DNA of 56,457 nt from Candidatus Omnitrophota bacterium (GCA_043823005.1 JBDRBG010000030.1:1-56457), one strand, 5' to 3'. Counted from the stretch's first letter, positions 25,336-49,400 are shown. Notes: generated from the letters alone by a model not told the origin. Translations and numbers: made by a program.

Positions 25336-25360
25336 GAGATTGCCGCGGTTGTTACGTTCC
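25336..25360 (-). repeat. Partial family A unit in the convergent gap
   Basis: GAGATTGCCGCGGTTGTTACGTTCC. Confidence 0.6.
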
Positions 25361-25383
25361 TGCCGGTAGGCTATATGTGCTGT

Positions 25384-26929: not shown

Positions 26930-26968
26930 ATTGGTTGCTTTTCTTGTTCAAAAAGAAACGTTTAAGTT

Positions 26969-28183: not shown

Positions 28184-28185
28184 AG

Positions 28186-30547: not shown

Positions 30548-30591
30548 ATTTTATCTTTCTTGTGTCCGTTTTATTTGATTTTTTTTGTGTT

Positions 30592-32473: not shown

Positions 32474-32495
32474 CTGGTAGCCCCAAGGGGATTCG
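32474..32495. repeat. attL (displaced tRNA-Glu 3' fragment)
   Basis: CTGGTAGCCCCAAGGGGATTCG is identical to 44752-44773. Flanking bases differ on both sides. Confidence 0.85.
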
Positions 32496-32627: not shown

Positions 32628-32654
32628 GTTACCGATGGGAAAACCGATGGGAAA
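32628..32654 (+). repeat. 27-nt island-internal direct repeat, left copy (candidate integrase arm-type site)
   Basis: GTTACCGATGGGAAAACCGATGGGAAA versus GTTACCGATGGGAAAACTGATGGGAAA at 44687-44713 (26/27). Each copy is itself a tandem of (C/T)GATGGGAAA. Confidence 0.7.
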
Positions 32655-32959: not shown

Positions 32960-35900
32960 ATGAAAAACCCTATAAATAAAAGAAAAATATGCCTAAAAGT
33001 TACTATTTTGACGGTAGTATGTCTTTTATATTTGCATACTATCGTTGGTGCATTGGCCCCGGAGGTGCGATCCGGTACTTTTAACTTCAAGACACGTTTC
33101 TTGAATGAAGCCAATTCTCGCCATTCTTTATCCCCGATCGTAGATACTGTTAGCGGAAGAAAAGATTCATCGATTGTAGCAAATTATAATGCATGGGATG
33201 GAATGATTATTTTTCAGGCAGATAAAGTATCTATTTTTCAGGAAAACGCATCTAAATTTTGCCCTGAGGACCCCGGAGCATTTATTTCAGCGTTGAGACA
33301 ATTTGTAAATACCGGAAAATTATCCCCAATGAGGGTTGATATAGATATTACAAATATTTGTAATAACAAATGTACGATGTGTTTTTCTGCGGATTTTCAA
33401 AAGAAACATCCAGTAATAATTCCAAAAAATAAAATGATAAAGATACTAGAAGATTTAAAGACAATCGGGGTTAAAAGTCTAAGGTTAACAGGTGGCGGAG
33501 ACCCCTTAACTCATCCAGACTTTATATGTTTCGTTGAAAATGCATATAAGCGAGGGTTTAAATTAACCTTAGAAACAAACGGAGATGGTTTGAACAATGG
33601 GATAATAGAAACCATAAGCCGATGCTTTACTCATGTAAGAGTAAGTGTAGATTCAGCTGTTGATAGCACTAGGCAACTAGTACATCAGCCCAAAAGAAAA
33701 GGTGCTACCTATGCAAGATTATTAGAAAACTTAAATAAAATAAAGGCTGAAAAAGAAAGAATAGGACGGCATAATGAATTGCTAATAGGTGCGACATTTT
33801 TGATCTTACCCGAAAATTATAGTGAAGTATATGCTTTCGCGGATGAAATGAAAAATGCAGGTGTGGATTGGATTGCTGTTAGAAAAACATTTAAGGAGGA
33901 TTACTATGACGAACATCCAGAGCATTTAGAGGAGGCGCTAACACAGATCAAAGAAGCCAGGGTTGTTCTTGAAAGTCCTGATTTCAAAATAGTTGGTCCT
34001 TATGGAGTTAGTCGCACCCCAAAAGAAGATTTCAAGGAATGTTTAATAGCAGGAACCAGGCTTGTGATTGTAGCAAATTCGCATATTTCGTTATGCTGTC
34101 TTTTGAGAAGCGGCGTTAATGTGGATGCGATCGATCTAGGGGAAATCGGGGAAGAAAACACACCTGTAATTAAATTGCTTGATGAGAAAAAAGAACAAAT
34201 AGGAGACTTTTTTAATAAAGCTCCCGCTTTTTGCAATGTATGCATTGATGTGGATTTCAATCACTTTTTAAACAGGATCAAGGATTTTCTGGAAGAATCC
34301 CAGGAGAATCTTTTTAGGAGAATGCAGGTATTCCCGCATAGTGGAAGTGAGATCTTAGTAGGAGAAAAAGGTTCGGAAGATGATATTGTTCCTGTATTTG
34401 TGCCCTATGAGCATTTTCGAAAATTCAATGATGGGGAAACGATTTCGTTCAATATGGACGAGATTGTCAGAACATCTAAAAAAATAGATCCGTTTTTAGC
34501 AAGAATAGCAAGGTTTTATCATTTGGAACGAATCTTAATAAGACAACAATCAGTTTCAAAAGAAGCAACACAATCAAAAAAAATATCAGAGCAGTATTCG
34601 GATCTGGACTTTTCTATTTTGAAAAGATTGAGCGAACAATATTTAAAGCCTACAACGCAAATATTAGTAAGCGGAAGCGTGGCTCGAAGACAATCTAACT
34701 TTTATTCTGATTTTGATCTATTTATTGTTGAGGAGACAAGTAATGATCCTGGGATAGGCCCTTTTTTGAGTGCGTTAAAGACTGTTACAGGAAAAGAAAT
34801 TCAAGATTATCATGCATTAAAAGAACAAATGCGGCATCTATATTTTAATTATCCATATGATCGTATGATGATAAATGATACAAGACCGCTTGATAGCACG
34901 AAGAGCTTGTCCGGAATACTCGGAATATCCAGAGAAGAGATTGAAACTAAAGATGCAGAGATTGCATTGTTTTTTTTAATAGGAAACGTTGTAGCGGAAA
35001 AGAAAAGTAAAGGAAAAAGGGATGAAGATATTGATATTAAGCACGATGCAGGGTTGTTTAAATATTTTTCTTTTTTTCTTGCCTCTTTGAACTACTTGTC
35101 AATTCCCCTTAAAAATGAAGACGAACAGTTTATAGAAGAACATTACAGGATTGTTTTGTCTTTCAGAGAAAAGGTGCAGCGTTTTTACGGGAAAGAGACC
35201 AGGATTGTGGGTGAGAAGTTTTTGGAAAATTCGGAAGATAAATTTATTGAGGAATTAAAAGCTTGCATGGAGAGCACGGTAAAATTAGTGAATTCATATG
35301 TGCCGCTAATATTTCAAAAATTGCAACAGAAGCTCCCTGGTCTTGCGGGAGAAGACCTTATGCAGATTTTAAACATAATTAAGGAAGGAAAAGAAGTAGA
35401 GTTTTCGGAAAATACGCCAGAAGCTGTATTAAGTATGTTGGCAGCGTTTTCAGAAAATGAGCTAATACAAATCAGATTGTATCAAATAGCAAGAAAGAAG
35501 TCATCTTGGTCGACATTATATTTTCTTGCACGCAATGAGAAGTGTCCATATGAAATAGTAGTCAAATTGGCTCAAATGGATGGTTATGTAAACAGGGATA
35601 TACGATATGAAGCAGCTAAAAATCCGAATGCGGATGAAAATGTCTGGAAAAAATTAATGACGGATATACATTTGCCGATAGCTAAATATTGCCGCAAAAA
35701 ACTCGGACGAGAGTTACCCCTTGTTAAAAGAAAAACTCTAGTGGTAGAAAGAGATAAGCCGGATCATTGGCAGCGGGAGATAATGAAAACATACAACATT
35801 GTTTTTAATATTATCGGGAAGGAATCAACAAATGAAACTATCCGGTCACAATTTGAAAAGGCTAAGATGAGGTTTGATGAATTTTGGGAGTCAAGCTCGG

Positions 35901-38551
35901 TGCACGAGTACAACGACGTTATGACTCGACTTTTTAGGATAACAAGCGAAATCGTAGAAGATCCATTTGTCGCGGCCAGGGAGCAATTAAATCAAATTGC
36001 AATTGAAATATATGAAAAAAATATCAAGAGTTTTAGCTATATGTCTTTACAGGAATTATTAGAAGCAAGCAGTTCGTTTAATCGCTTAGATGCATTCCTG
36101 AAAGATGATAAATCCGGCTTGAAAGATGCAGATGTGAGGGATTTGCTTGAAACTCAGATAGGCGCAGAGAGTGTTCCCGCGGCTGTAAAGATGCTGGAAG
36201 ATAGTGGAAGTATTGGAATCGTCTTGGATAATTATGGTGAACTTTTAATAGATTTAATGTTAACCGGCCAATTGCTCGCAAAAGGGAAGAATGTTAAGTT
36301 GTTCACTCGCAGTAGACCATTTATGATATCAGATGTAACATCATATGGGCTTTTGGGTTTTCTGGGAAGGATGGACAGAATCCTCGGGATGGAAAAGGTC
36401 TTATCGATCTTAAGGAAAAGTCATAAAAATGGAAAACTAAAGATCATCGCTACTGATGCCTTTTCAGATGGAGAGGAATTGTATTCTGAGGATAAAATGT
36501 CGGTGTTAAGGGAATTCGAAGATCTAGATGTAACGATAATAAAAGGAGATTGGAATTATAAAAGTGCCATTGGAATGAAAAATTGGCAGAGTGAAGATCC
36601 ACTGGAAGAGACAGATCTAAAATATTTTCCAACAGATGTAATAGTACTTAGAGTTGTGAAATCTCCGATTATAGTCGGAGAAAATACACCTAAAGATCCT
36701 GCTGAGTTATTTGGAAAATCTGAAATCAAGGTTTACTCGCAAAAGACCATAGAAGACAAGATCAGGTATATGCAGGAAAACAAAAGCGTTGAAAAAATGC
36801 TTAATGGTACTTTTGTTGTTAAAGATCATCATATTCATTTGGCTCCGACACGAGTTGAAACTTTCATGGAATTAGCTGAAAAAAATAGAAATATTATATT
36901 ATGGAATGATATTGAAAAAGAATGTGGTGTTGATATGAAAGATATCATTGATAGGGGAGATGTTGGCGAGTTAGAAACTGTATTACAAGTATCGAAAAAT
37001 AACGATCTTAAAGATTATCGAACAAAATATTCTATAGTGCAAAGAGCAATGGTAACAATGGACGATGTTGAGAGGGTGGCTTTTGAGATAGGGCAAGATT
37101 GCTACAGTAGCGGAGGGCAATATTGTGAAATCAGATTTGCAGCAGAAGATCCTAAAGTTATGATAGAGAAGATCCTTGCAAGTTATAATGGGCTCATGAA
37201 AGTGTCGGAGATGTACCCGAACTTTGAGTTTGGATTTTTGATAACACTTGAAAAGAGCTTAGATGAGGAAGATGCCGTAGCCATGATAGCTGAACTGGTC
37301 AGGTTTAAAATGGATACTAGCGTTTCTGAGGATATTCGTCGCCGCGTGGTGGGTGTAGATGCCGCAGGAAAAGAAAAGGGATTTAATGCGATGAAATTTA
37401 AGGGAGCTTTTGAAGCTGCCGGGAAATCGGGGCTTTTCGATGTTATCACTTCTCATGCAGGAGAGTCTTTCGGAAGCCTTGAGGAGGGGATACTTGCCAT
37501 AGAAGAGGCCATCGAGGTGTTGGGGGTTAATAGAATAGGGCATAGTATTGCCGCCGGAATTGACCCGGGAATCTTTTTGGGAAAAACAGATGAGTATGGT
37601 GAAGAATATGATGAAGAAAGGGTTATTAAATTATGGAAGATGCAGAATGGACTATTAAAAAAGATAAAGGAACGTGGAATATCTATCGAAATAAATATAT
37701 CAAGCAATCTTAAGACTGGAGCAGTATCAGATATTTCGGAACATCCAATTTCTGCTTTTCTTAAGGAAGGTATCTTGGTGTTAATGGGAACAGATGCACC
37801 CTTGGTGGCAAATATAGATATTTCCAAAGAAATTGATAAACTGCTCACCAGCATTAACTCTAATAGTAGATTAGAAGAAGTGGTATTTGCTAATGGAGAT
37901 GAAATAGAAGAGGCAACAAAAGAGGTAGTCCAAAGCGCTGCAGAAGTAAGGCATTATTTGTCTTTTCAGGAAATTGATCTATTGAACAATTCTCCACTTG
38001 TTGTTATAAAAAAAGATTTTATAGATCGACTATATAAGGAGACCCCTCTGGGAATATTGATGAATGATGGTTATAAAAAAACATTGCAAAAATTGAGAAA
38101 AATGCTGGGTCCGGACAACTTTATTGTTGCAGATGAAGATTTCAAGTTAGATGCGTTTATTGAGAAATCTGTCGCAGGAGGGCGAAAAATAATTATTTTA
38201 GATGATGGTGCTTTAAGTGAACGATATGCAAATACGGGAATAAAAGGAGAGCCGGGGAAGGATTATGTTTTCATGGTTCCCGGGACATCCCTTGATATTA
38301 GAAAAGATGCTGTGGAGTTTGTAGACATTACGGCTCTGGTATTGCTGGGGATCGGCATAATGGACGAAGATGACATGCTGTGTAGGATCGCATATAAAAA
38401 GTTTACAGGAGAAGAGATCACTAAAGAACTGCTATTATCTATACTGACAGGCAAATTAGAAACTATAAATATTTTGCCCAGGATTATAGCCATAAGCTCT
38501 GATGTTGATTGTAGTAGAAGTATGATGAGATTATTTGAGATAGCAGCTTAA
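32960..38551 (+). CDS. 1863-aa multi-enzyme fusion: signal/anchor, radical SAM, nucleotidyltransferase, helical repeats, DUF89 (ARMT1-like phosphatase), adenosine-deaminase-like amidohydrolase, and a C-terminal alpha/beta module
   Basis: N-terminal hydrophobic segment KVTILTVVCLLYLHTIVGALA. Radical SAM CxxxCxxC (CNNKCTMC, nt 33359-33382) with GGGDPL (33491-33508) and a downstream Cys-rich region (CC...C..C, to about 34280). Pol-beta NTase motif GS-x10-DFD (34673-34717). LRV/HEAT-like repeats at aa about 800-920. DUF89 motifs IVLDNYGELLIDL (DN at 36227), RPFMISDVT and KGDWNY (36542-36559). Amidohydrolase motifs HHIH (36827-36838), SHAGES (37451-37468), RIGHS (37532-) and TDAP (37790-37801). 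The C-terminal ~170 aa are unassigned. Confidence 0.8.
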   Translation: MKNPINKRKICLKVTILTVVCLLYLHTIVGALAPEVRSGTFNFKTRFLNEANSRHSLSPIVDTVSGRKDSSIVANYNAWDGMIIFQADKVSIFQENASKFCPEDPGAFISALRQFVNTGKLSPMRVDIDITNICNNKCTMCFSADFQKKHPVIIPKNKMIKILEDLKTIGVKSLRLTGGGDPLTHPDFICFVENAYKRGFKLTLETNGDGLNNGIIETISRCFTHVRVSVDSAVDSTRQLVHQPKRKGATYARLLENLNKIKAEKERIGRHNELLIGATFLILPENYSEVYAFADEMKNAGVDWIAVRKTFKEDYYDEHPEHLEEALTQIKEARVVLESPDFKIVGPYGVSRTPKEDFKECLIAGTRLVIVANSHISLCCLLRSGVNVDAIDLGEIGEENTPVIKLLDEKKEQIGDFFNKAPAFCNVCIDVDFNHFLNRIKDFLEESQENLFRRMQVFPHSGSEILVGEKGSEDDIVPVFVPYEHFRKFNDGETISFNMDEIVRTSKKIDPFLARIARFYHLERILIRQQSVSKEATQSKKISEQYSDLDFSILKRLSEQYLKPTTQILVSGSVARRQSNFYSDFDLFIVEETSNDPGIGPFLSALKTVTGKEIQDYHALKEQMRHLYFNYPYDRMMINDTRPLDSTKSLSGILGISREEIETKDAEIALFFLIGNVVAEKKSKGKRDEDIDIKHDAGLFKYFSFFLASLNYLSIPLKNEDEQFIEEHYRIVLSFREKVQRFYGKETRIVGEKFLENSEDKFIEELKACMESTVKLVNSYVPLIFQKLQQKLPGLAGEDLMQILNIIKEGKEVEFSENTPEAVLSMLAAFSENELIQIRLYQIARKKSSWSTLYFLARNEKCPYEIVVKLAQMDGYVNRDIRYEAAKNPNADENVWKKLMTDIHLPIAKYCRKKLGRELPLVKRKTLVVERDKPDHWQREIMKTYNIVFNIIGKESTNETIRSQFEKAKMRFDEFWESSSVHEYNDVMTRLFRITSEIVEDPFVAAREQLNQIAIEIYEKNIKSFSYMSLQELLEASSSFNRLDAFLKDDKSGLKDADVRDLLETQIGAESVPAAVKMLEDSGSIGIVLDNYGELLIDLMLTGQLLAKGKNVKLFTRSRPFMISDVTSYGLLGFLGRMDRILGMEKVLSILRKSHKNGKLKIIATDAFSDGEELYSEDKMSVLREFEDLDVTIIKGDWNYKSAIGMKNWQSEDPLEETDLKYFPTDVIVLRVVKSPIIVGENTPKDPAELFGKSEIKVYSQKTIEDKIRYMQENKSVEKMLNGTFVVKDHHIHLAPTRVETFMELAEKNRNIILWNDIEKECGVDMKDIIDRGDVGELETVLQVSKNNDLKDYRTKYSIVQRAMVTMDDVERVAFEIGQDCYSSGGQYCEIRFAAEDPKVMIEKILASYNGLMKVSEMYPNFEFGFLITLEKSLDEEDAVAMIAELVRFKMDTSVSEDIRRRVVGVDAAGKEKGFNAMKFKGAFEAAGKSGLFDVITSHAGESFGSLEEGILAIEEAIEVLGVNRIGHSIAAGIDPGIFLGKTDEYGEEYDEERVIKLWKMQNGLLKKIKERGISIEINISSNLKTGAVSDISEHPISAFLKEGILVLMGTDAPLVANIDISKEIDKLLTSINSNSRLEEVVFANGDEIEEATKEVVQSAAEVRHYLSFQEIDLLNNSPLVVIKKDFIDRLYKETPLGILMNDGYKKTLQKLRKMLGPDNFIVADEDFKLDAFIEKSVAGGRKIIILDDGALSERYANTGIKGEPGKDYVFMVPGTSLDIRKDAVEFVDITALVLLGIGIMDEDDMLCRIAYKKFTGEEITKELLLSILTGKLETINILPRIIAISSDVDCSRSMMRLFEIAA

Positions 38552-38574: not shown

Positions 38575-41500
38575 ATGAAGAATTGGAAAAAATTTGGACT
38601 TTTGACGAAAAGTATAGCTATAAGCGTTATATGCTTATTGCTTTTTAATGATGCATTGATTGCAGAGGGCTTCAGGAAAGGCAAAAAAACTCTGCAGCCG
38701 CCTACTATTTTTACTGTACCGGATGAAAAGGACACATTTTTTATTGCGATAAGTGGATATTTAGGATTTTATCTTGTTGATATCGAGAATGAACCTGAAA
38801 ACTGCAATGTGTTACGGATGAGAAATAGGGTAAGAGCGGCGGTAAAAGATATACAGGCAGTAAAAGGCATACCGGACAAAGTGAAAAACAAAATCCCCAA
38901 AATATCATATGATCAAGATGGATTCGTACTAGTGATCGATTTCGATGAGTTTACGGTGCGATATTTTAATCACAATCTTGCAGATTCAGAGATCTTTTGG
39001 GAACCCGGGCAAGAAGCGAATTATTATGTATCAGAAACGTGTAAAGGGAAATACCTGACAAGACAGATTATTACCCAAAGATCTTTGCTTTCATCGGGAA
39101 AACCAGTAGGTGAAACAGGAAAAGGATCTTCAGCATTAGGAGCAACCTCGATAGCCGGGGATGAAGCTTCAGAGGTATTGAATCTCTCTAGCCTGACTCA
39201 AGGATTGTTTGAATTTGATCTTCGCGCTGTGGAGATCGCGTTGAGTTATTTTAAACCCAATGTTGATATCGATCAGCTTGAAAATCAATTGATGAAGGTT
39301 GAAGGGGTTAGCCTTATACGATGGGTAGATAATGTCTTAACAATTGTCGGAAATAGTGAAATTGTTAAGTTTCATTTAAAAAGTGATGAGATCAATGAGC
39401 GGCTTGGATTAAAGGACAGATTATACATTATGGACGCAGACTTGGAGCAGGATATAACAGTCAAGATATATGCCAGGGATGAGCGTGATGATAAAAGGGG
39501 TATTGGGCCCGTATATATTCTCGGAGTAGTGCGCACTAGCCATGATTCGGGAGCTGTTTTGATAAAAGATGGTGTTGTAATAGGTGCGATTGAAGAAGAA
39601 AGATTGGATATGAATAAACATACACGTGCATATTTTCCAATCTTGGCGACAAGGTATTTATTGGAGGAACAAGGTGTAAAATGGGAACAAGTAAATCATA
39701 TCGCGACCACGTATGATTATAACTGGTTTAGAGATACCCCACACAGTAGAGCTCCTCGTGATCATTTTCACGAAAGATTTGGCTTGCCGGAACTTGCAGA
39801 TGACAAGAAATTATATAATACTGATACGTTGCAAACATTTTTGGAAAGATTAGCTGAGACTTATGGATCTGAATATGTACCCCCGGTTACATTTGTAAAA
39901 CATCACAAAACACATGCTGCAGCCGCGTGGCATACCAGTGGTTTTCCTGAACCTACACTTGCGGTTACTATTGACGGACGTGGCGAAGATGAAGCGACTA
40001 CTGTGTGGCTATGTGCTGAAGGAAAGATGAAAAAAATAAGCTCTGAATCATATATACACTCTCTAGGACATCTTTATTACATAGTTACAAAATATATCGG
40101 ATATAGGAGCCATGATGAGGGGAAAGTAATGGGCTTTGCGCCGTATGGCGCCGCGCGAAATTATGAAGAGGAAGAAAGGGTAGATAAGCTAAGGTTATTA
40201 ATGGATGAGGCTGTTAGCTTTGATACAACAACAGGTCATATACAGCTCGATCAGGATTGTTTTAACTTTTTTACTTTAGAAAACTTCCCTGGAATGGACT
40301 TTTCAGATGGATTTTTAAAAAGGCTTGAAGCGGTTGTGCCGAAGTATCCCAAAAGCATGGCGGGAACAGAACTCGATCCTGATAGAGAAGAACATCGTCC
40401 GTATGCGAATCTTGCGTACGTTCTTCAAGAAAAAGTCGAGGAAAGCATGATCCGTATGCTCGAATATTATTTACAGGAATACCCTGAAACCAAAGGGGTT
40501 AAGCATGTAGTTATGGGAGGCGGATTATCCTTAAATATTGCAGCAAATGGAAAGGTCATTGAATCGGGTGTTGTTGATGCCGATAAGTTCTTTGTCCCGG
40601 CTTTCCCTGCTGATGACGGCACAGCAGTCGGTGCAGCTTTGTCAGTAGCAGAGGAAGAATATGACCTAAATGCCAGAAATATTGTTGCTAAAATATCTCT
40701 AGGGAAGACTTATTCCGATGAGGAGATAAGTTTAACATTGGATAGATATGGTTTGGTTGAAGGAGAAGATTATTTCGCTATGCGGGATGATGTCGCGCTT
40801 GTTGAAACCGTAGCTGAAACTTTAGAAAATAATAGAACAGTAGCCTGGTATCAGGGGGGTGCTGAATTGGGACCCAGAGCTTTAGGAAATAGAAGTATTT
40901 TACACAGATTAGATGATCCTGAAGGGAACCTTAAAGTTAATGAAATAAAGAATCGCGAATACTGGAGGCCATCAGCTTTGTCAATTCAGCAGGAAAGAGC
41001 ATCTGAGTTTCTTGAAGGAATTGCAGTCTCACCATTTATGACTATAGGCTTTAAAGTTAAAGATGAAAAGAGAGACATCATAAGGGCCGGTGTACATTCA
41101 GCCGATGGGACAACTCGTCCACAAACTGTATTCCGTGAAGCAAATCCTATCTATTGGGCCTTGTTGGGGGAAATGGATAAAAGAACCGGTATTCCAGGAG
41201 TTTTAAATACATCTTTTAATAGAAGGGGGCCAATTATAGAAACGCCTGAAGATGCTCTTAACACTCTATATTATGGTCATGGAATCGATCAATTAGCGAT
41301 CGGACATTTTATTGTGAATAGGACCCAGCGCTTGCAGCCGAGTATCTTGAATTTGCAAGATGAACCGACTTTAAGAAAACAATATAAAGATATCATGGAT
41401 GATAATTATGATGTAAGCAAATGGCAACAATTTTCAAGAGATCTAAATCATCTGGTTGAATCACGAGGAGCAGCTCACCAGCATTTTCTGACTGTAAGTT

Positions 41501-42567
41501 CACTTGGTTCAGCCGGTAAAATAGATGTATTAAAAATTCCACTTTGTAAAGAAATGTTCCAAAGAGGCTCGCGTGAAAAAATGATTCCGGAGATGGCTGC
41601 ATACATTCATGAGAGAATAGGTCGCAAAACAAATGCAAATATTGTGATAAGTTCAACTTCTCACGAATATGAGGATGTGGTCATTAGCTTGTTTGAACGA
41701 TTTACTCCACTGGAAATTGTCAGGAATTGGCGAATCATGAAGGGTGATCCAAATGGAGACCTGTCTTGGGGAAATAGGGGAAGAGCACATGGAACCGACA
41801 AGGGAAAATTGTTGATAGTAGCAGGTCTTGATCCTGAAACCCAAAGAGTACAGCCGGAGATAATGATAATCGACAATGCTGAAGTGAAGACATTGTGGGG
41901 AAAAGATAGAATTATTAAAAACGCACAAGAAAAGATAATTCCTCAGCTCGTGCAGACTTTGATCGCTGCTTCGGAAAATATCGCGAAAAAAACACCAAAC
42001 CAAAAAGCTGCAATTTTGATTGACACTGAACTAGCTGAAGTTGGTTTTAGGGATGTTAAAAAAGAAATTGAGAAAATGATTAAACTTCTTGCAAATATTG
42101 AAGGGAATAATGAATATCTTCGTAGTTTCTTGAAAAACCTTGAGATCGTAGTTGGAAAGGGGAAGGATCTTATAAAGAAAAAAGGTAAGGTTAAAGATGA
42201 AAATGTAATAGTTGTAACAACAAAAGAAAATATGCAATATTTTGATGAAGCTTTATACGGAAAAGCCGTAATAGCGGCGATTGACAGAAAAGATTTTCCC
42301 AAAACCGCATATTTACCTTTATTAGAGGTGACATTATTTGCGATCGGAAAATATTTAGGGTGGAATGAGAATAAGATCAAACAACATTACATGAATATTC
42401 CAAATACCATTCCTCTTGAAATGATGGAAAGCGCAAATATTAATGATTTATTCGATGCTAACAAAAGAACTTTTATTATAAAACTGATTCCGAATGCAAT
42501 TGCCTTTGAGAAAAATGAATTAGTTGAGATGATGATGAATATAAGAAAAAGTCTAAGAAATGCATGA
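38575..42567 (+). CDS. 1330-aa NodU/CmcH/TobZ-family carbamoyltransferase flanked by large unknown N- and C-terminal regions
   Basis: Signal-like N-terminus SIAISVICLLLFNDALIA. The carbamoyltransferase core spans aa about 313-917 (nt about 39511-41325). Its motifs are YILGVVRTSHDSGAVLIKDGVVIGAIEEERLDMNKHT, HHKTHAAAA (39901-), VVMGGGLSLNIAANG, FPADDGTAVGAALS, GPRALGNRSIL (40870-), HSADGTTRPQTV and VLNTSFNRRGPIIETPEDAL. It starts 23 nt after the previous stop, on the same strand. Confidence 0.85.
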   Translation: MKNWKKFGLLTKSIAISVICLLLFNDALIAEGFRKGKKTLQPPTIFTVPDEKDTFFIAISGYLGFYLVDIENEPENCNVLRMRNRVRAAVKDIQAVKGIPDKVKNKIPKISYDQDGFVLVIDFDEFTVRYFNHNLADSEIFWEPGQEANYYVSETCKGKYLTRQIITQRSLLSSGKPVGETGKGSSALGATSIAGDEASEVLNLSSLTQGLFEFDLRAVEIALSYFKPNVDIDQLENQLMKVEGVSLIRWVDNVLTIVGNSEIVKFHLKSDEINERLGLKDRLYIMDADLEQDITVKIYARDERDDKRGIGPVYILGVVRTSHDSGAVLIKDGVVIGAIEEERLDMNKHTRAYFPILATRYLLEEQGVKWEQVNHIATTYDYNWFRDTPHSRAPRDHFHERFGLPELADDKKLYNTDTLQTFLERLAETYGSEYVPPVTFVKHHKTHAAAAWHTSGFPEPTLAVTIDGRGEDEATTVWLCAEGKMKKISSESYIHSLGHLYYIVTKYIGYRSHDEGKVMGFAPYGAARNYEEEERVDKLRLLMDEAVSFDTTTGHIQLDQDCFNFFTLENFPGMDFSDGFLKRLEAVVPKYPKSMAGTELDPDREEHRPYANLAYVLQEKVEESMIRMLEYYLQEYPETKGVKHVVMGGGLSLNIAANGKVIESGVVDADKFFVPAFPADDGTAVGAALSVAEEEYDLNARNIVAKISLGKTYSDEEISLTLDRYGLVEGEDYFAMRDDVALVETVAETLENNRTVAWYQGGAELGPRALGNRSILHRLDDPEGNLKVNEIKNREYWRPSALSIQQERASEFLEGIAVSPFMTIGFKVKDEKRDIIRAGVHSADGTTRPQTVFREANPIYWALLGEMDKRTGIPGVLNTSFNRRGPIIETPEDALNTLYYGHGIDQLAIGHFIVNRTQRLQPSILNLQDEPTLRKQYKDIMDDNYDVSKWQQFSRDLNHLVESRGAAHQHFLTVSSLGSAGKIDVLKIPLCKEMFQRGSREKMIPEMAAYIHERIGRKTNANIVISSTSHEYEDVVISLFERFTPLEIVRNWRIMKGDPNGDLSWGNRGRAHGTDKGKLLIVAGLDPETQRVQPEIMIIDNAEVKTLWGKDRIIKNAQEKIIPQLVQTLIAASENIAKKTPNQKAAILIDTELAEVGFRDVKKEIEKMIKLLANIEGNNEYLRSFLKNLEIVVGKGKDLIKKKGKVKDENVIVVTTKENMQYFDEALYGKAVIAAIDRKDFPKTAYLPLLEVTLFAIGKYLGWNENKIKQHYMNIPNTIPLEMMESANINDLFDANKRTFIIKLIPNAIAFEKNELVEMMMNIRKSLRNA

Positions 42568-42754: not shown

Positions 42755-43234
42755 TCAATTTTTATGATCTGTTTCTAGAACCAGGTAGCGTAATTTCGAA
42801 TAAGTCTTAATGAACTCTTTAAGGAGTTTTTTTACTTCACTAATATATCTGGCATTGGGAATTTCTTTAGAATTGTTTAATTCCTTGATTAGCTTTCCGG
42901 CGAAAGCGTTCGTGATCGCCGGTTTTTTAAGTATTACATTTTCAAATAGTTTTAATTCTTTGCTATTGAGATCGGAGTCCTTGCCGGGAGCGCTTAATGA
43001 ACTATAGTCGGAAAGATTGAGCTTGTGCAGCTTTTCGGCAAAGTACTTCGTTTTTAGTTCTATCTGCAGCGCATGTTCTATTCGTTCGATTATGGCGGGG
43101 GAGGGGAGCTTGCCGTGTTTTTCTATCTGTGTGATATAGACAGGGTTCACTTCGACTTTTTGAGCGAGTTCGTAGACCTTAAGCCCTAATGCCAATCTTT
43201 TATCCCTAATTATCTGTCCCAGGTTTTTTGCCAT
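42755..43234 (-). CDS. XRE-family HTH regulator with a ~100-aa C-terminal extension
   Basis: MAKNLGQIIRDKRLALGLKVYELAQKVEVNPVYITQIEKHGKLPS is a classic HTH_3 domain. I prefer the ATG at 43234 over the TTG at 43264 used by the ORF track. The gene is divergent from xis-int. Confidence 0.8.
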   Translation of the reverse strand: MAKNLGQIIRDKRLALGLKVYELAQKVEVNPVYITQIEKHGKLPSPAIIERIEHALQIELKTKYFAEKLHKLNLSDYSSLSAPGKDSDLNSKELKLFENVILKKPAITNAFAGKLIKELNNSKEIPNARYISEVKKLLKEFIKTYSKLRYLVLETDHKN

Positions 43235-43282
43235 ACCAGAAGTATACTCTAAAAAAACAAACAAATCAATTAGTTTTAAGTG

Positions 43283-43394: not shown

Positions 43395-43580
43395 ATGGTT
43401 AAAGAAGACTTCATATGGTCGGATGAGATGTGTGAGTTGTGTGGGATCGCCAAGAAAACATTGCAGGATCCCCGGTGGCGGAAGGGTGTGAGGATCCCGG
43501 TAAAGAAATTCGGGAGGTCTCTTGTAGCGGCAAGAGGTGAATTTGCTGAGTGGTTCAACGGTCGGTTAAAAAATGCCTAA
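43395..43580 (+). CDS. xis: Excisionase/AlpA-like small HTH protein
   Basis: 61 aa from the ATG at 43395, with RBS GGAGG 7 nt upstream. The ORF-track start at 43347 is a TTG. MCELCGIAKKTLQDPRWRKGVRIPVKKFGRSLV fits the MerR/excisionase-type HTH. The stop overlaps the int start (ATGCCTAA). Confidence 0.6.
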   Translation: MVKEDFIWSDEMCELCGIAKKTLQDPRWRKGVRIPVKKFGRSLVAARGEFAEWFNGRLKNA

Positions 43581-44676
43581 GAGTAAACGTAAATACATTA
43601 AGACCAGATACCAGGGCGTTCGAAGGTATGTAGGAGATGACTGCCTGTTTGAGATATATTACAGGCCGTACCGTGGCGCTAAGCCGAAATATGTGACCAT
43701 AACGGCAAGCTCCGCCGAAGAAGCAAGGAAAGAGCGTGTGCGTCTGCAAAATGAAGATATGAACCTTACAGGTATCAGCCGGAGAGGGGAGCCTATGAAT
43801 TTTGAGGGGTACAAAAGCCTGTTGATAGAAAAATGTAAAACTGAGGATGTCGATAAAACTATCAGGAATTATCTTGCAGTTTTCACAAGGTTTTATACAT
43901 GGCTTTCAGGGGCTCCGGCGAATATTGAAGATCTGAGCAGGATCAATTCTGTAGTTATGGAGCTTTATCACCTATATGTTGTAAATGAGCTGAAGCTGGA
44001 CTGGCGAAATGAGCTGACCAAAATACGCGCGATAATCAAAAAGTTTGTGGATATCGGTAAACGTGACGAGAAAGTTTATACGGATGTTCTGAGGAAGATC
44101 AAGAAACCACCCAGAAAAGAAAAGGCATATGTGGATATATCTCCTGAGGATAAGAAGATCTTCCTGGAATATACCAGGGAAAAGAGGCCTGACTATTACG
44201 GGATATTATACCTTAATATGCGTTTTGGCTGGCGGAGAGAGCAGGTTATTTTACTCAGGAAATCCGACGTTAGCATTGAGCTGGGTAGACCCGTTGCGAT
44301 AACATTCAGGCCGGAAACCACTAAAACGAAGGTCCCGTATGTTTTTAGGGATATTGATGAGCAGCTTGCCGCGGTGTTGAATGAGTACCGGCTTAAAGCT
44401 CTAGGGTCTGAGTATCTTTTCCCGAATAAGTCAGGTGGTAAACATCATTCCAACCATTACACCTCCTGGGTGACAAAGAACAGCTTAAAAGTCCTGGGGA
44501 AGAAGATCCGGCCGCACGACTTCAGGCATGCTTTTTGTACAAAGATGCTGCAGAAGGGTTATTCTAAAAAAGATATTATGGCTGTTACCGGGCATAGGAG
44601 CGAGGGATGTTTCGATATGTATGTTCACGCGACAAGCGAGGGTACCAGGCGGGTTATAGAAAGTTCGGCTCTTTGA
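43573..44676 (+). CDS. int: Tyrosine recombinase / phage-type integrase
   Basis: C-terminal catalytic signature R...HDFRHAFCT...GH...Y (IRPHDFRHAFCTKMLQKG, VTGHRSEGCFDMYVH). It lies adjacent to the tRNA 3' end. Confidence 0.9.
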   Translation: MPKSKRKYIKTRYQGVRRYVGDDCLFEIYYRPYRGAKPKYVTITASSAEEARKERVRLQNEDMNLTGISRRGEPMNFEGYKSLLIEKCKTEDVDKTIRNYLAVFTRFYTWLSGAPANIEDLSRINSVVMELYHLYVVNELKLDWRNELTKIRAIIKKFVDIGKRDEKVYTDVLRKIKKPPRKEKAYVDISPEDKKIFLEYTREKRPDYYGILYLNMRFGWRREQVILLRKSDVSIELGRPVAITFRPETTKTKVPYVFRDIDEQLAAVLNEYRLKALGSEYLFPNKSGGKHHSNHYTSWVTKNSLKVLGKKIRPHDFRHAFCTKMLQKGYSKKDIMAVTGHRSEGCFDMYVHATSEGTRRVIESSAL

Positions 44677-44686: not shown

Positions 44687-44713
44687 GTTACCGATGGGAA
44701 AACTGATGGGAAA
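44687..44713 (+). repeat. 27-nt island-internal direct repeat, right copy
   Basis: See 32628-32654. It lies 38 nt inside attR. Confidence 0.7.
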
Positions 44714-44716
44714 AAC

Positions 44717-44747
44717 AAAAAACCCAGTTCATTGAACTGGGTTTTTA
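44717..44747. terminator. Bidirectional rho-independent terminator
   Basis: AAAAAACCCAGTTC-ATT-GAACTGGGTTTTTA. The 8-bp GC-containing stem is flanked by an A-run and a T-run. It could stop int (+) and the tRNA transcript (-). Confidence 0.7.
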
Positions 44748-44751
44748 TATT

Positions 44752-44829
<78 letters not shown>

Positions 44830-46480: not shown

Positions 46481-49400
46481 ATGCGGAAAAATATAGAAAT
46501 CATGTTTTTTATAAAACAAACATACAAACAAATAAAAAAGAGAATTCGTAGAATCCTTGTTTTTATTTTTATAGGGATTCTTGCAATGGCAGGCGTGCCT
46601 TTGCCTGTTGCTCATTCTGGTGGGTATGAGCCGCTTGGAGTTTATCAGGATCTTTTTTTTGAGGTTCAGGATAATCTTTTTACCTTACCGGAATCTTTAG
46701 GATATGTGCAGGATGTTTTTCTGGGAACAAAAGACAGGTTTGTGATACATATTCAGGATGCGCATAGTAATTATTATGCGCAAAAAACCATAACTGAGAT
46801 TATCCGGTATTTTAAGGAAAAATACGGAGTCAGTTTGATTTGTCTGGAAGGAGGAAGCGGAGAATATGACCTGGAGCCTTTTGAAAATATACAGGATGAT
46901 GCGATACGATCTATTGCGGCGGATTTTTTTCTGAACCAGGGCAGATTAAACGCCGCTGAATTCATGAAAATAAAAGAGCCCAAAGGCTTTGTTCTGGCAG
47001 GCATTGAGGACGCGGCACTTTATAAAGAGAACTTAAATATTTATAAAGAAAATATAAAACACAAACATAGTGTCAATTCTTTTCTGGAGAACACATCCCG
47101 CGTTATGACAAGTCTTAAAAAGCAGATTTATTCAAGCAATCTTGTGGAGATGGACAAACAATATATGATGTATAAAAATGGAGAGATATCCTTTAAAACA
47201 TATCTTTCTTATCTGATAGAACAAGCCGGATTCAAGGGGCTAAACATCAAAAATCTTTCTAATCTATATTTAATTCAGCAAATATTTGACGTGGAAAACC
47301 AAATTGATTTTAAAAAAGCAAATAAAGAAAGAGACGCGTTTATAGAAAGACTCAGACAAAATCTGGCACGCAATAAAATACAGGAACTTGTTCAAAAAAT
47401 AACGGAGTATAAAACGGGCATAATAAAGCAGGGAAAATTTTATGATTATCTTCTTGAAACCGGAGAAAAATCAGGAATTGCTATTTCAAAATATCCGATT
47501 TTTCAAAAATATATCATATATGTATCGTTATATTCCGCGATAGATAAGTCTCGAGTTTTCAAGGAATTGAACCAGTTAGAGGATCTTATCCGGGAAGAGC
47601 TCTGTTCCGGTGAGATTCAACGAAAACTTATGGTTTTCAGTAAAAGGTTTACTTTAATTGAAAAGGCCTTTGATTTTACTCTGACAAAAGATGATTACGA
47701 TCATCTTTTGTTACAATGTTTCGATAGTTTTCCGATAACTGAAATGACATCTTTTTTAGCAAAACAAGCTTCTTTTTATGGTACAAGAAGCGGCTTGCCG
47801 AAAAATAGCTTTGAGCTGGATGAGAGACTAAAACAAATAAGCGGGTTTTATGTCTGTTCTTTCAGGCGAGATGAAATTTTTACGCGCAATACCCTCGAGC
47901 AAATAAAAACAACGGGATTTAATGACGCAATACTTATTACCGGCGGATTTCATTCTGAAAACCTTACGCGTTTGATGAGAGAAAAAGATGTTTCTTACAT
48001 TTCTATAATGCCGCAGTTTAAAAATGCGGCCGGATATACATGCCCTTATTTTGATCTTCTTAGCGGCAGAGATTCATTTATGGAAAAATTTATATTGGAT
48101 ACAGTTGCTTCTTCCGGCCTTCAGATCGCCAGCATATGGAACCGGCTGGGGATGGAACTCGCGGGAGAAAAAGAAAAAAATCTGGCGATGATACAGCTTG
48201 AAATAGTTAAAACTCTTGAAACGGAACCGGAAGCTTTTCTTGCGATAAAAGGATCGGAAATTGCCATAAGTTTTCATAAGGACCCGGCCGGAAATATTGA
48301 TTATAAGCTGGTACGGGCACAAGAAGATAAAATAGCCGATGTTTTGATAACAAACGCTGATGATCTTAGCTATGACGATCATGAGAAAATAATAGATGAA
48401 CAGATCGTTATGGCAAGAGATAGAGGAGATGTTAACTTGTTTGATCCGGAAAAAGAAATTGGACAAAAAATGGTTTCTTTTCTTAAGGCAGTAGAGGAAA
48501 GGGGCGGTTTTAGCGGGATAGCTGAAGCTGTTGAAAACAAAAAAATAAATATTTATGAAGTGAAAGGGGCGAAAGGTTTCAGAGGACATGCCAGCTGGCG
48601 GGGTATCTACATAAACGCGGAGATCCCTGCTAAAGAACAGACTGCTGTTCTTGTTCATGAAATCGGTGCTTATTATAGACAAACGCATAAACAAAATATA
48701 GAACTTGAAAAACTGTATAAGAAGTACGATCTATCTGAGGCTGTTCTCGAAACTGCTGACATTACAAAGTTTGGCGCATTGAAAGAACAGAACGAATTAA
48801 AAGGACCGGGATATGTTCCCGGACGGGATTATGCTAACGCTGATATAGAATATGGGGAGCGAAACTTAAATGTAGATTTTTTGTCCAAGAGAGAAGCAGA
48901 AGGCACTGGCAAAAAATGGCTAAATGTGATTTCTTCTCAATCGGGAAAAATAGGGAACAAGATGATCCGTATTATTCAAAAGAGAAGCCGGAATATACCC
49001 TTTTTTAATGCGGAAGCATTTGGGGCATTTATCGAGAGCTGGGATATCCTGACCATAGAGGATAATTTTTATACTGCCGGGTTTGTTGACGCTGAGCAAG
49101 ACGAGTACGGAAGGAGAAAACTTTATTTGACAGAGACTCTGCATAATGCGTTAACCCTGGTTCCCGAGGCCGTTCCTTTTATTATTCTTAGTGAAGTTTC
49201 TCGTTCAGAAAGAGAGAACAAGCATACTCAAGCCATTCTTAAACAACTGATAAGCGGTACGGACATAACAAGCCCCGGTATTTTTATGCGCGGATTATCA
49301 GGGATAAAAAAACAGGCCATAAAACAAGCTTTTGAACAAACAGGCGCGGATTTAACCAAATTGATCAATCTGGCAGAGAAGATAGGCAAAGAAAAGTTTT

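What the first reader, a model, noticed from the sequence alone, without database searches (positions are those of the whole stretch)
38575..42567. Giant carbamoyltransferase (TobZ/NodU/CmcH-like) with ~310-aa N-terminal and ~410-aa C-terminal unknown regions, operonic with the radical-SAM fusion
The central 600 aa carry every motif I associate with the Kae1-like plus YrdC-like carbamoyltransferase family (HHKTHAAAA, GGGLSLN, DDGTAVGAA, GPRALGNRSIL, DGTTRPQTV, NTSFN..GPI). Known members carbamoylate antibiotics or Nod factors through carbamoyl-adenylate. The related Kae1/YrdC chemistry makes the t6A nucleoside. More than half of this protein is unassigned. The gene starts 23 nt after the fusion enzyme, which implies co-expression. 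A carbamoyl/adenylate-forming enzyme beside deaminase, NTase, phosphatase and rSAM domains strengthens the idea of a dedicated nucleoside-modification pathway.
Basis: partly seen in the sequence, partly recalled or inferred. Interest (0 to 1): 0.75.

Follow-up and report, generated by a model that had tools for sequence, protein, structure and literature searches.

The report
Exported carbamoyltransferase between Omnitrophota bookend domains
The gene encodes a genuine antibiotic-type carbamoyl-transfer enzyme, but its two large "unknown" ends are a signal peptide plus two domains that over a hundred Omnitrophota protein clusters use to frame unrelated enzymes, and the gene rides with its radical-SAM neighbour on a small mobile island.

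Summary
ORF 38575-42567 (1330 aa) has a complete TobZ/NodU/CmcH-type carbamoyltransferase core, and every TobZ catalytic residue I could map is conserved. It starts 23 nt after the 1863-aa radical-SAM/DUF89/adenosine-deaminase fusion.

The unknown regions resolve into layers:
- **Subfamily layer (aa 205-1056).** A ~110-aa pre-domain and a ~140-aa post-domain flank the core. They occur only in a very rare carbamoyltransferase subfamily of about 16 clusters.
- **Lineage layer.** A Sec-type signal peptide (aa 1-30) is followed by an N-terminal "bookend" domain (aa 31-180), and a C-terminal "bookend" closes the protein (aa 1103-1330). About 105 protein clusters carry the C-bookend at their extreme C-terminus. 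Every named one is Omnitrophota.
- **What the bookends frame.** At least 33 unrelated cores, including phosphoglycerate kinase, CofD, methyltransferases and kinases. The ends are therefore not carbamoylation-specific.

Both giant genes, an HTH gene and an integrase form a 12.3-kb island in tRNA-Glu, bounded by an exact 22-bp repeat.

Homologues of the upstream gene do not sit beside carbamoyltransferases. Subfamily members do recurrently pair or fuse with non-orthologous radical-SAM enzymes, phosphatases and purine/pentose enzymes. A nucleoside- or sugar-like acceptor is plausible but unproven.

The function of the bookends is unknown. Export or targeting is my inference.

The parts
32474..32495 (.). 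Left island boundary: an exact 22-nt copy of the 3' end of tRNA-Glu (att-like direct repeat)
   Evidence: CTGGTAGCCCCAAGGGGATTCG occurs only at 32474 and 44752 in the window; about 9e-5 such repeats are expected by chance
32628..32654 (+). Arm-type repeat just inside the left end, holding two tandem CCGATGGGAAA units; its partner is at 44687-44713
   Evidence: 27-nt direct repeat, 96% identical; unit positions
32960..38551 (+). Upstream cargo gene, 1863 aa: signal-peptide-like N-terminus, radical SAM (CxxxCxxC at aa 134), weak NTase-like motif, ARMT1/DUF89 phosphatase, adenosine-deaminase domain with intact motifs
   Evidence: Pfam and NCBIfam; motifs DHHIHL 1289, SHAGE 1498, GHS 1527, TDAP 1611; signal-peptide-like N-terminus
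38575..42567 (+). The carbamoyltransferase gene (1330 aa plus stop)
38575..38664 (+). aa 1-30: Sec-type signal peptide (n-region MKNWKKFGLLTK, h-region SIAISVICLLLF, c-region NDALIA|EG)
   Evidence: Same pattern in 45 family members: mean net charge +3.3 before a 12-residue hydrophobic core, then ..VWA|(N/D/S)PD. This is a heuristic; no SignalP run
38665..39114 (+). aa 31-180: N-terminal 'bookend' domain (motifs LQPxTxF, ExDPxNxN, IRYFNP, GxYLxRQ)
   Evidence: Found at the extreme N-terminus of 53 of the 109 representative hits listed besides the query and the previously fetched homologues, nearly all of them C-bookend proteins; family HMM matches the query at aa 10-180, E 3e-56; no Pfam family
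39187..39516 (+). aa 205-314: pre-domain specific to the subfamily (EINERxGLKDRxY..VKIYxRDxRD)
   Evidence: Conserved in all 12 homologues; AF2 pLDDT about 90, alpha/beta; no PDB fold match; absent from TobZ, whose alignment begins at aa 317
39517..40641 (+). aa 315-689: Kae1/ASKHA-like transfer domain with H323, H443, H447, D467, D680
   Evidence: Pfam PF02543; residue-by-residue alignment to TobZ 3VEN; invariant in the subfamily alignment
40813..41322 (+). aa 747-916: YrdC-like domain that would form carbamoyl-AMP (GPRALGNRS 766-774, K792, RPQTV, S880 in NTSFN)
   Evidence: Pfam PF16861; TobZ alignment; invariants
41323..41742 (+). aa 917-1056: post-domain specific to the subfamily
   Evidence: Matched only by subfamily members in the exhaustive search: P0003, 4, 6, 8, 9, P0073, P0094, P0104, P0125; alignments
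41881..42564 (+). aa 1103-1330: C-terminal 'bookend' domain, ending ..L-x-(K/R)-A-COOH
   Evidence: About 105 representative clusters carry it, nearly always within a few residues of the C-terminus. The last residue is Ala in 101 of 104. AF2 pLDDT 85.6, pTM 0.82, alpha/beta. No PDB or BFVD match with E below 0.02. No Pfam family
42755..43264 (-). HTH_3 (Xre-type) regulator within the island
   Evidence: Pfam E 2e-8
43573..44676 (+). Tyrosine recombinase/integrase of the island
   Evidence: Phage_integrase E 1e-13; NCBIfam Xer-like hits below their cut-offs
44753..44829 (-). tRNA-Glu(CTC), the integration target; its 3' 21 nt lie within the right copy of the 22-nt repeat (44752-44773)
   Evidence: ARAGORN; repeat

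Best explanation
The 1330-aa protein is a chimera with three layers.

Layer 1, shown. An ATP- and carbamoyl-phosphate-dependent carbamoyltransferase of the NodU/CmcH/TobZ family. By analogy with TobZ, the YrdC-like domain (aa 747-916) makes carbamoyl-AMP. The Kae1-like domain (aa 315-689; metal site H443/H447/D467/D680, base H323) passes the carbamoyl group to an acceptor hydroxyl.

Layer 2, shown. A pre-domain (aa 205-314) and a post-domain (aa 917-1056) define a very rare, patchily distributed subfamily. Its members are fused or adjacent to radical-SAM enzymes, phosphatases, purine PRTase-like, PfkB-kinase, NUDIX, pentose-phosphate and methyltransferase domains.

Layer 3, shown. A Sec-type signal peptide plus N- and C-terminal 'bookend' domains that about 105 Omnitrophota protein clusters use to flank at least 33 unrelated cores.

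Inferred. The bookends are a generic export, targeting or assembly scaffold of this lineage. They do not belong to the chemistry. The acceptor is a pentose- or purine-nucleoside-like small molecule made or processed by the co-transcribed radical-SAM/DUF89/adenosine-deaminase protein. The two genes act as one unit, because they are the only non-mobility, non-regulatory cargo of a 12.3-kb tRNA-Glu integrative island.
For: Carbamoyltransferase identity:
- Pfam domains score far above their cut-offs.
- TobZ aligns at E 7e-59 over aa 317-917, with H14/H114/H118/D137/D338/K443/S530 mapping to H323/H443/H447/D467/D680/K792/S880. All are invariant in 13 subfamily sequences.

Subfamily:
- 12 homologous clusters at 43-58% identity cover aa ~205-1056.
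- None of the 80 best of at least 600 pattern matches kept from the 185,579 GTDB species genomes exceeds 35% identity or covers the pre- and post-domains.
- Only 3 loci turned up in 241 million metagenome records.

Partner domains.

Bookends:
- C-bookend domain in 105 clusters, terminal in nearly all of them.
- N-bookend domain in 53 of 109.
- Cores include PGK (P0064), CofD plus methyltransferase (P0045), HD, protein kinase and deaminase. There are 33 distinct core types among 53, and the carbamoyltransferase core is unique among them.
- Every named member is Omnitrophota.

Signal peptide.

Island: tRNA-Glu, integrase and an exact 22-nt repeat 12.3 kb apart, plus arm-type repeats.
Against: - A carbamoyltransferase needs ATP and carbamoyl phosphate. 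A radical-SAM enzyme needs a cytoplasmically assembled Fe-S cluster and a reductant. Both requirements sit badly with Sec export.
- The signal-peptide call is heuristic.
- No structure or function is known for either bookend domain. The N-bookend model was low-confidence because I supplied no alignment for it.
- The radical-SAM partners in different contexts are not orthologous to each other or to the window's.
- Homologues of the upstream gene lack carbamoyltransferase neighbours.
- The acceptor is pure inference from domain company.
- There is no expression evidence, and consensus promoter and terminator counts are at chance level.
Confidence: 0.5

Rival explanations
1. A cytoplasmic, dedicated nucleoside-modification pathway in which the long N- and C-terminal regions of this protein are pathway-specific domains for substrate or partner binding. 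It would work hand in hand with the deaminase/NTase/phosphatase/radical-SAM fusion.
For: 23-nt spacing and shared island. The adenosine-deaminase motifs are intact. Purine PRTase-like, PfkB, NUDIX and phosphatase domains accompany the subfamily elsewhere.
Against: aa 1-180 and 1103-1330 are shared with about 105 clusters whose cores are unrelated. Other subfamily members lack them. Both proteins begin with signal-peptide-like sequences. Homologues of the upstream gene never sit beside a carbamoyltransferase in the contexts available.
Confidence: 0.15
2. Carbamoylation of the envelope or of a prey glycan. Like NodU/NolO acting on chitin-oligosaccharide Nod factors, the enzyme would O-carbamoylate a sugar of a surface polysaccharide, of peptidoglycan, or of a prey cell-wall polymer. 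The bookends and signal peptide would place it at the cell surface, near the type II secretion/pilus-like locus.
For: The best NCBIfam hit is NodU, though partial. Signal peptide. A T2SS-like locus lies 2.5-15 kb upstream. Such loci are reported beside Omnitrophota giant, putatively cell-wall-targeting proteins (10.1101/2023.11.21.568195). Sugar kinase and epimerase fusions occur in homologues.
Against: There is no ATP or carbamoyl phosphate outside the cytoplasm. Purine-type partners (adenosine deaminase, PRTase-like) do not fit a glycan route. No glycosyltransferase or polysaccharide-export genes are in the island.
Confidence: 0.15
3. An anti-phage or anti-competitor island. The two genes would make a toxic or chain-terminating modified nucleotide or nucleoside, in the manner of prokaryotic viperins or the oxetanocin OxsA/OxsB pair. 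Carbamoylation would be a tailoring or self-protection step.
For: A mobile island with an integrase and an Xre-type HTH. The radical-SAM domain gives partial hits to the pVip models (PADLOC E 4e-20; NCBIfam viperin 58 bits) and the deaminase gives weak hits to CARF-ADA and RdrB models. Other subfamily loci lie next to recombinases or toxin-antitoxin genes.
Against: The pVip hits cover only the generic N-terminal half of the radical-SAM core and are far below the cut-off (58 against 180 bits). Other radical-SAM models score higher. PADLOC has no hit for the carbamoyltransferase. There are no relatives on viral contigs. The signal peptides are unexplained by an intracellular defence role.
Confidence: 0.12
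4. The adjacency carries no functional meaning, and/or the carbamoyltransferase module is a decaying passenger captured by a domain-shuffling protein family.
For: The specific gene pair is not conserved elsewhere. The bookend family clearly shuffles cores.
Against: The 3990-nt ORF is intact and every mapped catalytic residue is retained. The module shares 52-64% identity with its nearest relatives over about 850 aa. The two genes have the same orientation, a 23-nt gap, and are the only non-mobility, non-regulatory cargo of the island.
Confidence: 0.05

Closest known systems
TobZ (nebramycin/tobramycin 6''-O-carbamoyltransferase, PDB 3VEN) and relatives NovN, GdmN, CmcH, NodU/NolO
   Same: The same two-domain architecture, YrdC-like plus Kae1-like. 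E 7e-59 to TobZ over aa 317-917. All the residues I mapped are conserved: H14, H114, H118, D137, D338, K443, S530. Their catalytic roles are from my memory of the TobZ literature. The expected chemistry is therefore the same: carbamoyl phosphate plus ATP gives carbamoyl-AMP, then O-carbamoylation.
   Different: Only about 30-35% identical to any characterised or GTDB-representative member. It has an extra pre-domain and post-domain that TobZ lacks. It carries a signal peptide and bookend domains. It scores 125 bits against the 1000-bit cut-off of the NodU equivalog. The acceptor is unknown.
HypF and TsaD/Kae1-YrdC (t6A) systems
   Same: They share the YrdC-like and Kae1/ASKHA-like folds and acyl-adenylate logic.
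   Different: Sequence scores are at noise level: HypF 15 bits against 466, TsaD 16-18 bits against 25 and 208. No Pfam or NCBIfam hit to an acylphosphatase or HypF zinc-finger domain was listed. No HypF chain appeared in the PDB sequence search at E up to 0.01. It is not a member of either family.
Small radical-SAM plus phosphohydrolase cassettes that make nucleoside analogues (oxetanocin OxsB/OxsA; prokaryotic viperins). Named from memory, as leads only
   Same: A compact mobile cassette combining a radical-SAM enzyme, a phosphatase and purine-nucleotide-handling domains. Subfamily members elsewhere pair with B12-radical-SAM or double-radical-SAM enzymes and with His_Phos/NUDIX.
   Different: No orthology to OxsB or to viperin was shown; only generic radical-SAM core hits below the cut-offs. 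To my knowledge, none of those systems includes a carbamoyltransferase, a signal peptide or giant fusions.
Omnitrophota giant, multi-enzyme, signal-peptide/TM-bearing proteins (bioRxiv 10.1101/2023.11.21.568195; 10.64898/2026.06.07.730766)
   Same: The same phylum. Long polypeptides tile cytoplasmic-type enzyme domains behind a signal peptide or TM segment. A T2SS/pilus-like locus lies nearby. The preprint discusses the same paradox of 'metabolic' domains predicted to lie outside the cytoplasm.
   Different: Those papers treat proteins of 10,000 aa or more and classify them by Pfam content and topology. In the passages returned by my term searches I found no description of the shared ~150-aa N-terminal and ~225-aa C-terminal domains reported here, or of a carbamoyltransferase member. 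I searched the papers by term only and did not read them in full.

Membership tests
NodU/CmcH/TobZ-type carbamoyltransferase (Pfam PF02543 + PF16861) | Both Pfam domains, in order, above their gathering scores | tested here: met
   129 bits (cut-off 24) at aa 315-689 and 169 bits (cut-off 27) at aa 747-916
NodU/CmcH/TobZ-type carbamoyltransferase (Pfam PF02543 + PF16861) | Metal site of the Kae1-like domain (HxxxH, Asp, Asp) and the His base | tested here: met
   H443/H447/D467/D680 and H323 align with TobZ H114/H118/D137/D338 and H14. They are invariant in 13 subfamily sequences. The residue roles are from my memory of the TobZ literature
NodU/CmcH/TobZ-type carbamoyltransferase (Pfam PF02543 + PF16861) | Carbamoyl-phosphate/ATP-site motifs of the YrdC-like domain (GPRALGxRS, K..R..WRP, RPQTV, NTSFN) | tested here: met
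   aa 766-774, 792-799, 848-852, 878-882
NodU/CmcH/TobZ-type carbamoyltransferase (Pfam PF02543 + PF16861) | Carbamoyl-AMP formation and transfer activity | not testable with these tools
   Needs an enzyme assay
NodU equivalog (NCBIfam NF041651) | Full-length score at or above the curated cut-off | tested here: not met
   125 bits against 1000; only profile positions 281-526 matched
HypF carbamoyltransferase (TIGR00143) | Score at or above the cut-off; acylphosphatase and zinc-finger domains | tested here: not met
   15 bits against 466; no Pfam or NCBIfam hit to such domains was listed
TsaD/Kae1 t6A transferase | Score at or above the cut-off for PF00814 / TIGR00329 | tested here: not met
   17.6 bits against 24.8, and 15.7 against 207.8
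Known anti-phage defence proteins (PADLOC-DB v2) | Any model hit for the carbamoyltransferase | tested here: not met
   0 families for the carbamoyltransferase. The upstream protein has only partial pVip and weak CARF-ADA/RdrB hits
tRNA-integrated genomic island | Tyrosine integrase next to a tRNA gene, and a direct repeat of the tRNA 3' end at the far boundary | tested here: met
   Integrase 43573-44676; tRNA-Glu 44753-44829; exact 22-nt repeat at 32474 and 44752, with about 9e-5 expected by chance
tRNA-integrated genomic island | An empty site in related genomes, or evidence of excision | not tested
Sec (type I) signal peptide | Positive n-region, h-region of 7-15 residues, small residues at -3/-1 | tested here: met
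   Query: +4 before a 12-residue core, then ALIA|E. Family median h-region is 12, with ..VWA|. This is a heuristic count; SignalP/DeepTMHMM were not available
Known C-terminal sorting or anchor domains that have Pfam/NCBIfam models (for example T9SS CTD, PEP-CTERM, LPXTG) | A model hit in the C-terminal 230 aa | tested here: not met
   No Pfam hit at E up to 1 except noise; no NCBIfam hit; the fold is alpha/beta with no PDB match

The most novel reading that the evidence does not exclude
The signal peptide plus N/C 'bookend' architecture marks a previously undescribed, Omnitrophota-wide family of polymorphic exported proteins. A constant pair of terminal domains would carry interchangeable cytoplasmic-type enzymes (phosphoglycerate kinase, CofD, kinases, methyltransferases, deaminases, and here a carbamoyltransferase) out of the cell. 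They might pass through the neighbouring T2SS-like machine and into or onto a host or prey cell, where ATP, SAM and carbamoyl phosphate are available. Under this reading the tRNA-Glu island is a mobile two-gene effector cassette that rewrites host purine or pentose metabolites.
Probability: 0.15. Interest if true: 0.85.

Novelty: new variant of a known kind. Interest (0 to 1): 0.62.

Why it matters
For the enzyme, the finding defines a rare carbamoyltransferase subfamily with its own pre- and post-domains. Its recurring company is radical-SAM enzymes, phosphatases and purine/pentose enzymes. That points to an undiscovered carbamoylated nucleoside- or sugar-type metabolite and gives a compact two-gene island to express.

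For Omnitrophota biology, it gives a concrete sequence handle: two terminal domains plus a VWA|xPD signal-peptide junction. The open question is why this host-dependent phylum puts cytoplasmic-type enzymes behind export signals. Bookend proteins can now be counted per genome, sought in secretomes, and tested for whether the two ends fold together.

It is also a caution for annotation. 'Unknown extensions' of a giant enzyme can be lineage-wide scaffolding that has nothing to do with the pathway.

Tried and rejected
1. By eye, the C-terminus of the upstream 1863-aa protein looked like the carbamoyltransferase C-terminus. Rejected: no BLAST hit, no HMM hit, hhalign probability 0.9%. The upstream protein also lacks the N-bookend.
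2. The word-indexed homologue search with aa 30-315 returned nothing, not even known relatives. I treat this as uninformative.
That test remains undone.
4. Foldseek gave no match with E below 0.3 in the PDB for the pre-domain model. For the C-bookend model, the best were weak PRTase-like Rossmann hits in the PDB at E 0.02 and TM 0.2-0.26, and nothing in BFVD with E below 0.05.
5. I asked whether the typical ~900-aa cores of other bookend proteins are cryptic carbamoyltransferases. No: the subfamily HMM hits only the query.
6. Single-linkage clustering of cores lumped 39 of 53 together through short shared modules. I replaced it with a reciprocal 50%-coverage criterion, which gives 33 types.
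7. PADLOC has no hit for the carbamoyltransferase. The viral-contig scan with the pre-domain found none, and the scan with the C-bookend alignment could not be run.
8. A PDB sequence search of upstream aa 301-987 found nothing.
9. The radical-SAM neighbours of the homologues were tested for orthology with the window's radical-SAM domain. None was found at BLAST E below 1e-3.
10. Consensus promoter and terminator scans were at chance level and are not used as evidence, beyond the absence of a terminator-like site in the 23-nt gap.

Full report
**1. Observation**

The window has an uninterrupted ORF at 38575-42567 on the + strand (1330 aa, ATG start). Pfam places Carbam_trans_N at aa 315-689 (129 bits, cut-off 24) and Carbam_trans_C at aa 747-916 (169 bits, cut-off 27). 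It assigns nothing to aa 1-314 or 917-1330.

The upstream ORF 32960-38551 (1863 aa) ends 23 nt before the ATG. It contains Radical_SAM (aa 130-290, CxxxCxxC at 134), ARMT1/DUF89 (aa 988-1242) and A_deaminase (aa 1334-1626). The deaminase motifs DHHIHL, SHAGE, GHS and TDAP are intact. The 'NTase' is weak: NTP_transf_2 at E 0.007 plus a GS..DxD motif at aa 572.

**2. The enzyme core**

A sequence search of the PDB puts TobZ first (3VEN, E 7e-59, query 317-917 against chain 14-573). NovN, an unnamed carbamoyltransferase (7XB6) and GdmN follow. No HypF chain appears.

I read the printed alignment with the chain's +6 offset. TobZ residues H14, H114, H118, D137, D338, K443 and S530 align with H323, H443, H447, D467, D680, K792 and S880. 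Their roles as base, metal ligands and carbamoyl-phosphate/ATP-site residues are from my memory of the TobZ literature. All are invariant across the 13 subfamily sequences.

HypF and TsaD models score at noise level, and the NodU equivalog reaches 125 of the required 1000 bits. So this is a member of the O-carbamoyltransferase family, with every tested catalytic feature in place. It is not an orthologue of any named member.

**3. The subfamily layer**

The word-indexed search of 5.8 billion proteins returned only 12 other clusters, at 43-58% identity. Their shared region is not just the Pfam core. It runs from about aa 205 to 1056, so it includes a ~110-aa pre-domain and a ~140-aa post-domain.

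- The pre-domain carries the motifs EINERxGLKDRxY and VKIYxRDxRD. AF2 models it at pLDDT about 90 as an alpha/beta unit with no PDB fold match.
- The exhaustive HMMER search matched the post-domain only in subfamily members. It added four more clusters: P0073, P0094, P0104 and P0125.
- A pre-domain pattern found 3 loci in 241 million metagenome records and none on viral contigs.

The subfamily is real, very rare and patchy. Named members come from Omnitrophota and Dysgonamonadaceae MAGs.

**4. What the subfamily keeps company with**

Fusions:
- PfkB kinase plus methyltransferase: P0002-5 and the L091 protein.
- About 950 aa containing an adenine/hypoxanthine-PRTase-like domain: P0007, P0009, P0010, and the separate 1008-aa protein of L002.
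- B12-binding domain plus radical SAM: P0012.
- Ribulose-phosphate 3-epimerase: P0013.

Neighbours:
- L002: carbamoyltransferase, then the PRTase-like protein, then a double radical-SAM protein.
- L003/L004: AP_endonuc_2, NUDIX, AP_endonuc_2, carbamoyltransferase, then a B12-radical-SAM enzyme.
- L005-7: carbamoyltransferase-PRTase fusion, then His_Phos_1 plus a double radical-SAM protein.

In 5 of 7 independent contexts a radical-SAM enzyme is adjacent or fused. These radical-SAM enzymes belong to different classes, and none is detectably orthologous to the window's.

Conversely, the upstream gene has only three homologous clusters: P0015 from Ca. Tantalella remota, P0016 and P0017. The two with readable context have no carbamoyltransferase nearby.

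The same functional set does recur, assembled from different parts: carbamoyltransferase, radical SAM, phosphatase, and a purine or pentose-phosphate enzyme. That is the only evidence for a nucleoside- or sugar-like acceptor, and it is circumstantial.

**5. The outer layer, the main new result**

I searched aa 917-1330 against 1.84 billion representatives and got 115 hits. Ten are the query itself and subfamily post-domains. The other ~105 match only aa ~1105-1330, and in nearly all the match ends within a few residues of the protein's C-terminus. These proteins range from 70 to 5734 aa. The last residue is Ala in 101 of 104, and the tail reads I-R-x-(I/F)-L-x-(K/R)-A.

Aligning 34 of them revealed a second shared region at the N-terminus. 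It matches the query's aa ~10-180 through the motifs LQPxTxF, ExDPxNxN, IRYFNP and GxYLxRQ. An iterated search found it at the extreme N-terminus of 53 of 109 hits. Most of the remainder are short fragments.

Between the two 'bookends' lie very different cores:
- Phosphoglycerate kinase: P0064, aa 1212-1593, E 2e-52.
- CofD plus methyltransferase: P0045.
- TPR plus methyltransferase, HD, UPF0489, protein kinase, enolase, cytidine deaminase, alpha-amylase, GNAT.
- Many cores with no Pfam match.

By reciprocal 50% coverage there are 33 core types among 53 proteins. The carbamoyltransferase core is unique among them. Every member that carries a name comes from Candidatus Omnitrophota or Ca. Tantalella remota.

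Within the window only this protein has bookends. The upstream protein and the other carbamoyltransferase-subfamily members do not. P0017, a relative of the upstream gene, has a weak C-bookend. Neither bookend has a Pfam or NCBIfam model.

The C-bookend models confidently (pLDDT 85.6, pTM 0.82) as an alpha/beta domain with no significant match in the PDB or BFVD. The N-bookend could not be modelled well, because the alignment I supplied did not cover it.

**6. Signal peptide**

The query and 45 family members start with the same pattern:
- a positively charged n-region (mean net +3.3);
- a hydrophobic core with a median of 12 residues, too short for a transmembrane helix;
- a c-region ending ..VWA, followed by (N/D/S)-P-D. 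In the query this reads NDALIA|EG.

The upstream protein shows the same pattern (..GALA|PEV). So do the Omnitrophota-type fusions P0002, P0004, P0005, P0013 and P0015-17. The non-Omnitrophota subfamily members do not. The public gene call P0001 starts at codon 22 and misses this region.

This is a heuristic reading, not a SignalP result. Taken at face value it predicts export of enzymes that need ATP, carbamoyl phosphate, SAM or Fe-S clusters. A 2026 preprint discusses the same paradox for Omnitrophota long proteins, 94% of which carry a signal peptide or TM segments (10.64898/2026.06.07.730766). In the passages that my term searches of that preprint and of West-Roberts et al. 2023 returned, I found no description of the bookend domains.

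**7. Genomic setting**

The window is chromosomal. It holds ATP synthase genes and a T2SS/type IV pilus-like locus: T2SSE, T2SSF, PilM/N, three pseudopilin-like ORFs, a secretin and an AAA_22 ATPase. It also holds YchF.

A tRNA-Glu(CTC) lies at 44753-44829 on the - strand, beside a tyrosine integrase at 43573-44676. The 22-nt string CTGGTAGCCCCAAGGGGATTCG covers the tRNA's 3' end. It recurs exactly once, at 32474, where about 9e-5 such repeats are expected by chance. A second 27-nt repeat with tandem CCGATGGGAAA units sits just inside each end. It looks like an arm-type site.

The 12.3-kb island therefore contains only the two giant genes, an Xre-type HTH gene and the integrase. A promoter-like site (10 of 12 matches, with a TG extension) lies 37 nt upstream of the first gene. 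No terminator-like site separates the two genes, but such scans are at chance level overall.

Another subfamily member (P0005) sits next to a large serine recombinase. L003 carries an integrase fragment and a Fic/MazE pair. This again suggests mobile, accessory loci.

**8. Mechanism, with shown and inferred steps marked**

- Shown: an intact carbamoyltransferase active-site architecture; two subfamily-specific flanking domains; a signal-peptide-like N-terminus; two lineage-wide terminal domains that are independent of the enzyme carried; joint island carriage with the radical-SAM/DUF89/deaminase fusion.
- Inferred from family knowledge: carbamoyl-AMP forms in the YrdC-like domain, and the metal-dependent Kae1-like domain transfers the carbamoyl group to a hydroxyl.
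- Inferred from context, with low confidence: the acceptor is a purine-nucleoside- or pentose-like small molecule handled by the upstream protein.
- Inferred: the bookends serve export, targeting or assembly, not catalysis.

Each is weighed in its own section.

**9. Verdict**

The carbamoyltransferase call is right and the gene pair is probably one unit. The 'giant' size, however, comes mostly from an Omnitrophota-specific scaffold and not from extra pathway chemistry.

The enzyme is a new variant of a known kind. The bookend architecture appears undescribed and is the more interesting lead.

Noticed in passing
window 16993-31416: A T2SS/type IV pilus-like locus: T2SSE 16993-18675, T2SSF 18982-20223, PilM/PilN fusion 20277-21686, three small ORFs sharing a pseudopilin-like N-terminus (22624-24214), TPR proteins, secretin 28186-29940 (-) and AAA_22 ATPase 30592-31416 (-). 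It resembles the secretion locus that West-Roberts et al. report next to Omnitrophota giant genes. It lies about 1 kb from the left end of the island.
   Followed up: partly
window 27-9509 (+): An ORF of at least 3160 aa, starting 26 nt from the window edge so possibly extending beyond it. It has no bookend match and I did not otherwise analyse it. It is another Omnitrophota-style giant gene.
   Followed up: no
window 46481-52193 (+): Two large ORFs (1141 aa and 796 aa) that overlap by about 100 nt, with no Pfam or PADLOC hit. The first begins with a hydrophobic N-terminal segment.
   Followed up: no
window 44721-44748: A hairpin plus T-run (AACCCAGTTCATTGAACTGGGTTTTTAT) between the integrase stop and the right att repeat. 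It is probably the integrase terminator, sitting just inside the island boundary.
   Followed up: no
window 11148-16540: ATP synthase genes with a b/delta (OSCP) fusion ORF. The beta-like subunit hits a V/A-type C-terminal domain model.
   Followed up: no
P0017 (1225 aa; homologue of the upstream gene): A HATPase_c plus radical-SAM protein whose extreme C-terminus gives a weak match to the C-bookend HMM (E 4e-7, aa 1072-1224). So radical-SAM enzymes related to the window's upstream gene can also sit in the bookend framework.
   Followed up: partly
L001 8093-9820 (-): An uncalled 575-aa ORF directly upstream of the PfkB-carbamoyltransferase-methyltransferase giant P0005. By reading its translation, I judge it a large serine recombinase, which suggests that locus is also on a mobile element.
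   Followed up: partly
L003 1965-7382: Upstream of the carbamoyltransferase/B12-radical-SAM cluster of P0011 lies a conserved block: a 451-aa protein with no Pfam hit, an HSP70/MreB-like protein, an AAA ATPase and an FGE-sulfatase-domain protein. Fic and MazE genes and an integrase fragment also lie upstream of the cluster in L003. The AAA/FGE part of the block recurs in three contigs.
   Followed up: no
P0003 and P0008, about 80-110 aa after the post-domain: A P-loop segment (for example PVLIGIAGPTASGR) that resembles uridine-kinase/phosphoribulokinase-type kinases follows the carbamoyltransferase module. I noted this by eye only.
   Followed up: no
L010 1-9641: The bookend protein P0022 lies directly downstream of a 3476-aa cNMP-binding giant protein. 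No conserved partner gene for bookend proteins was evident from this single context.
   Followed up: partly
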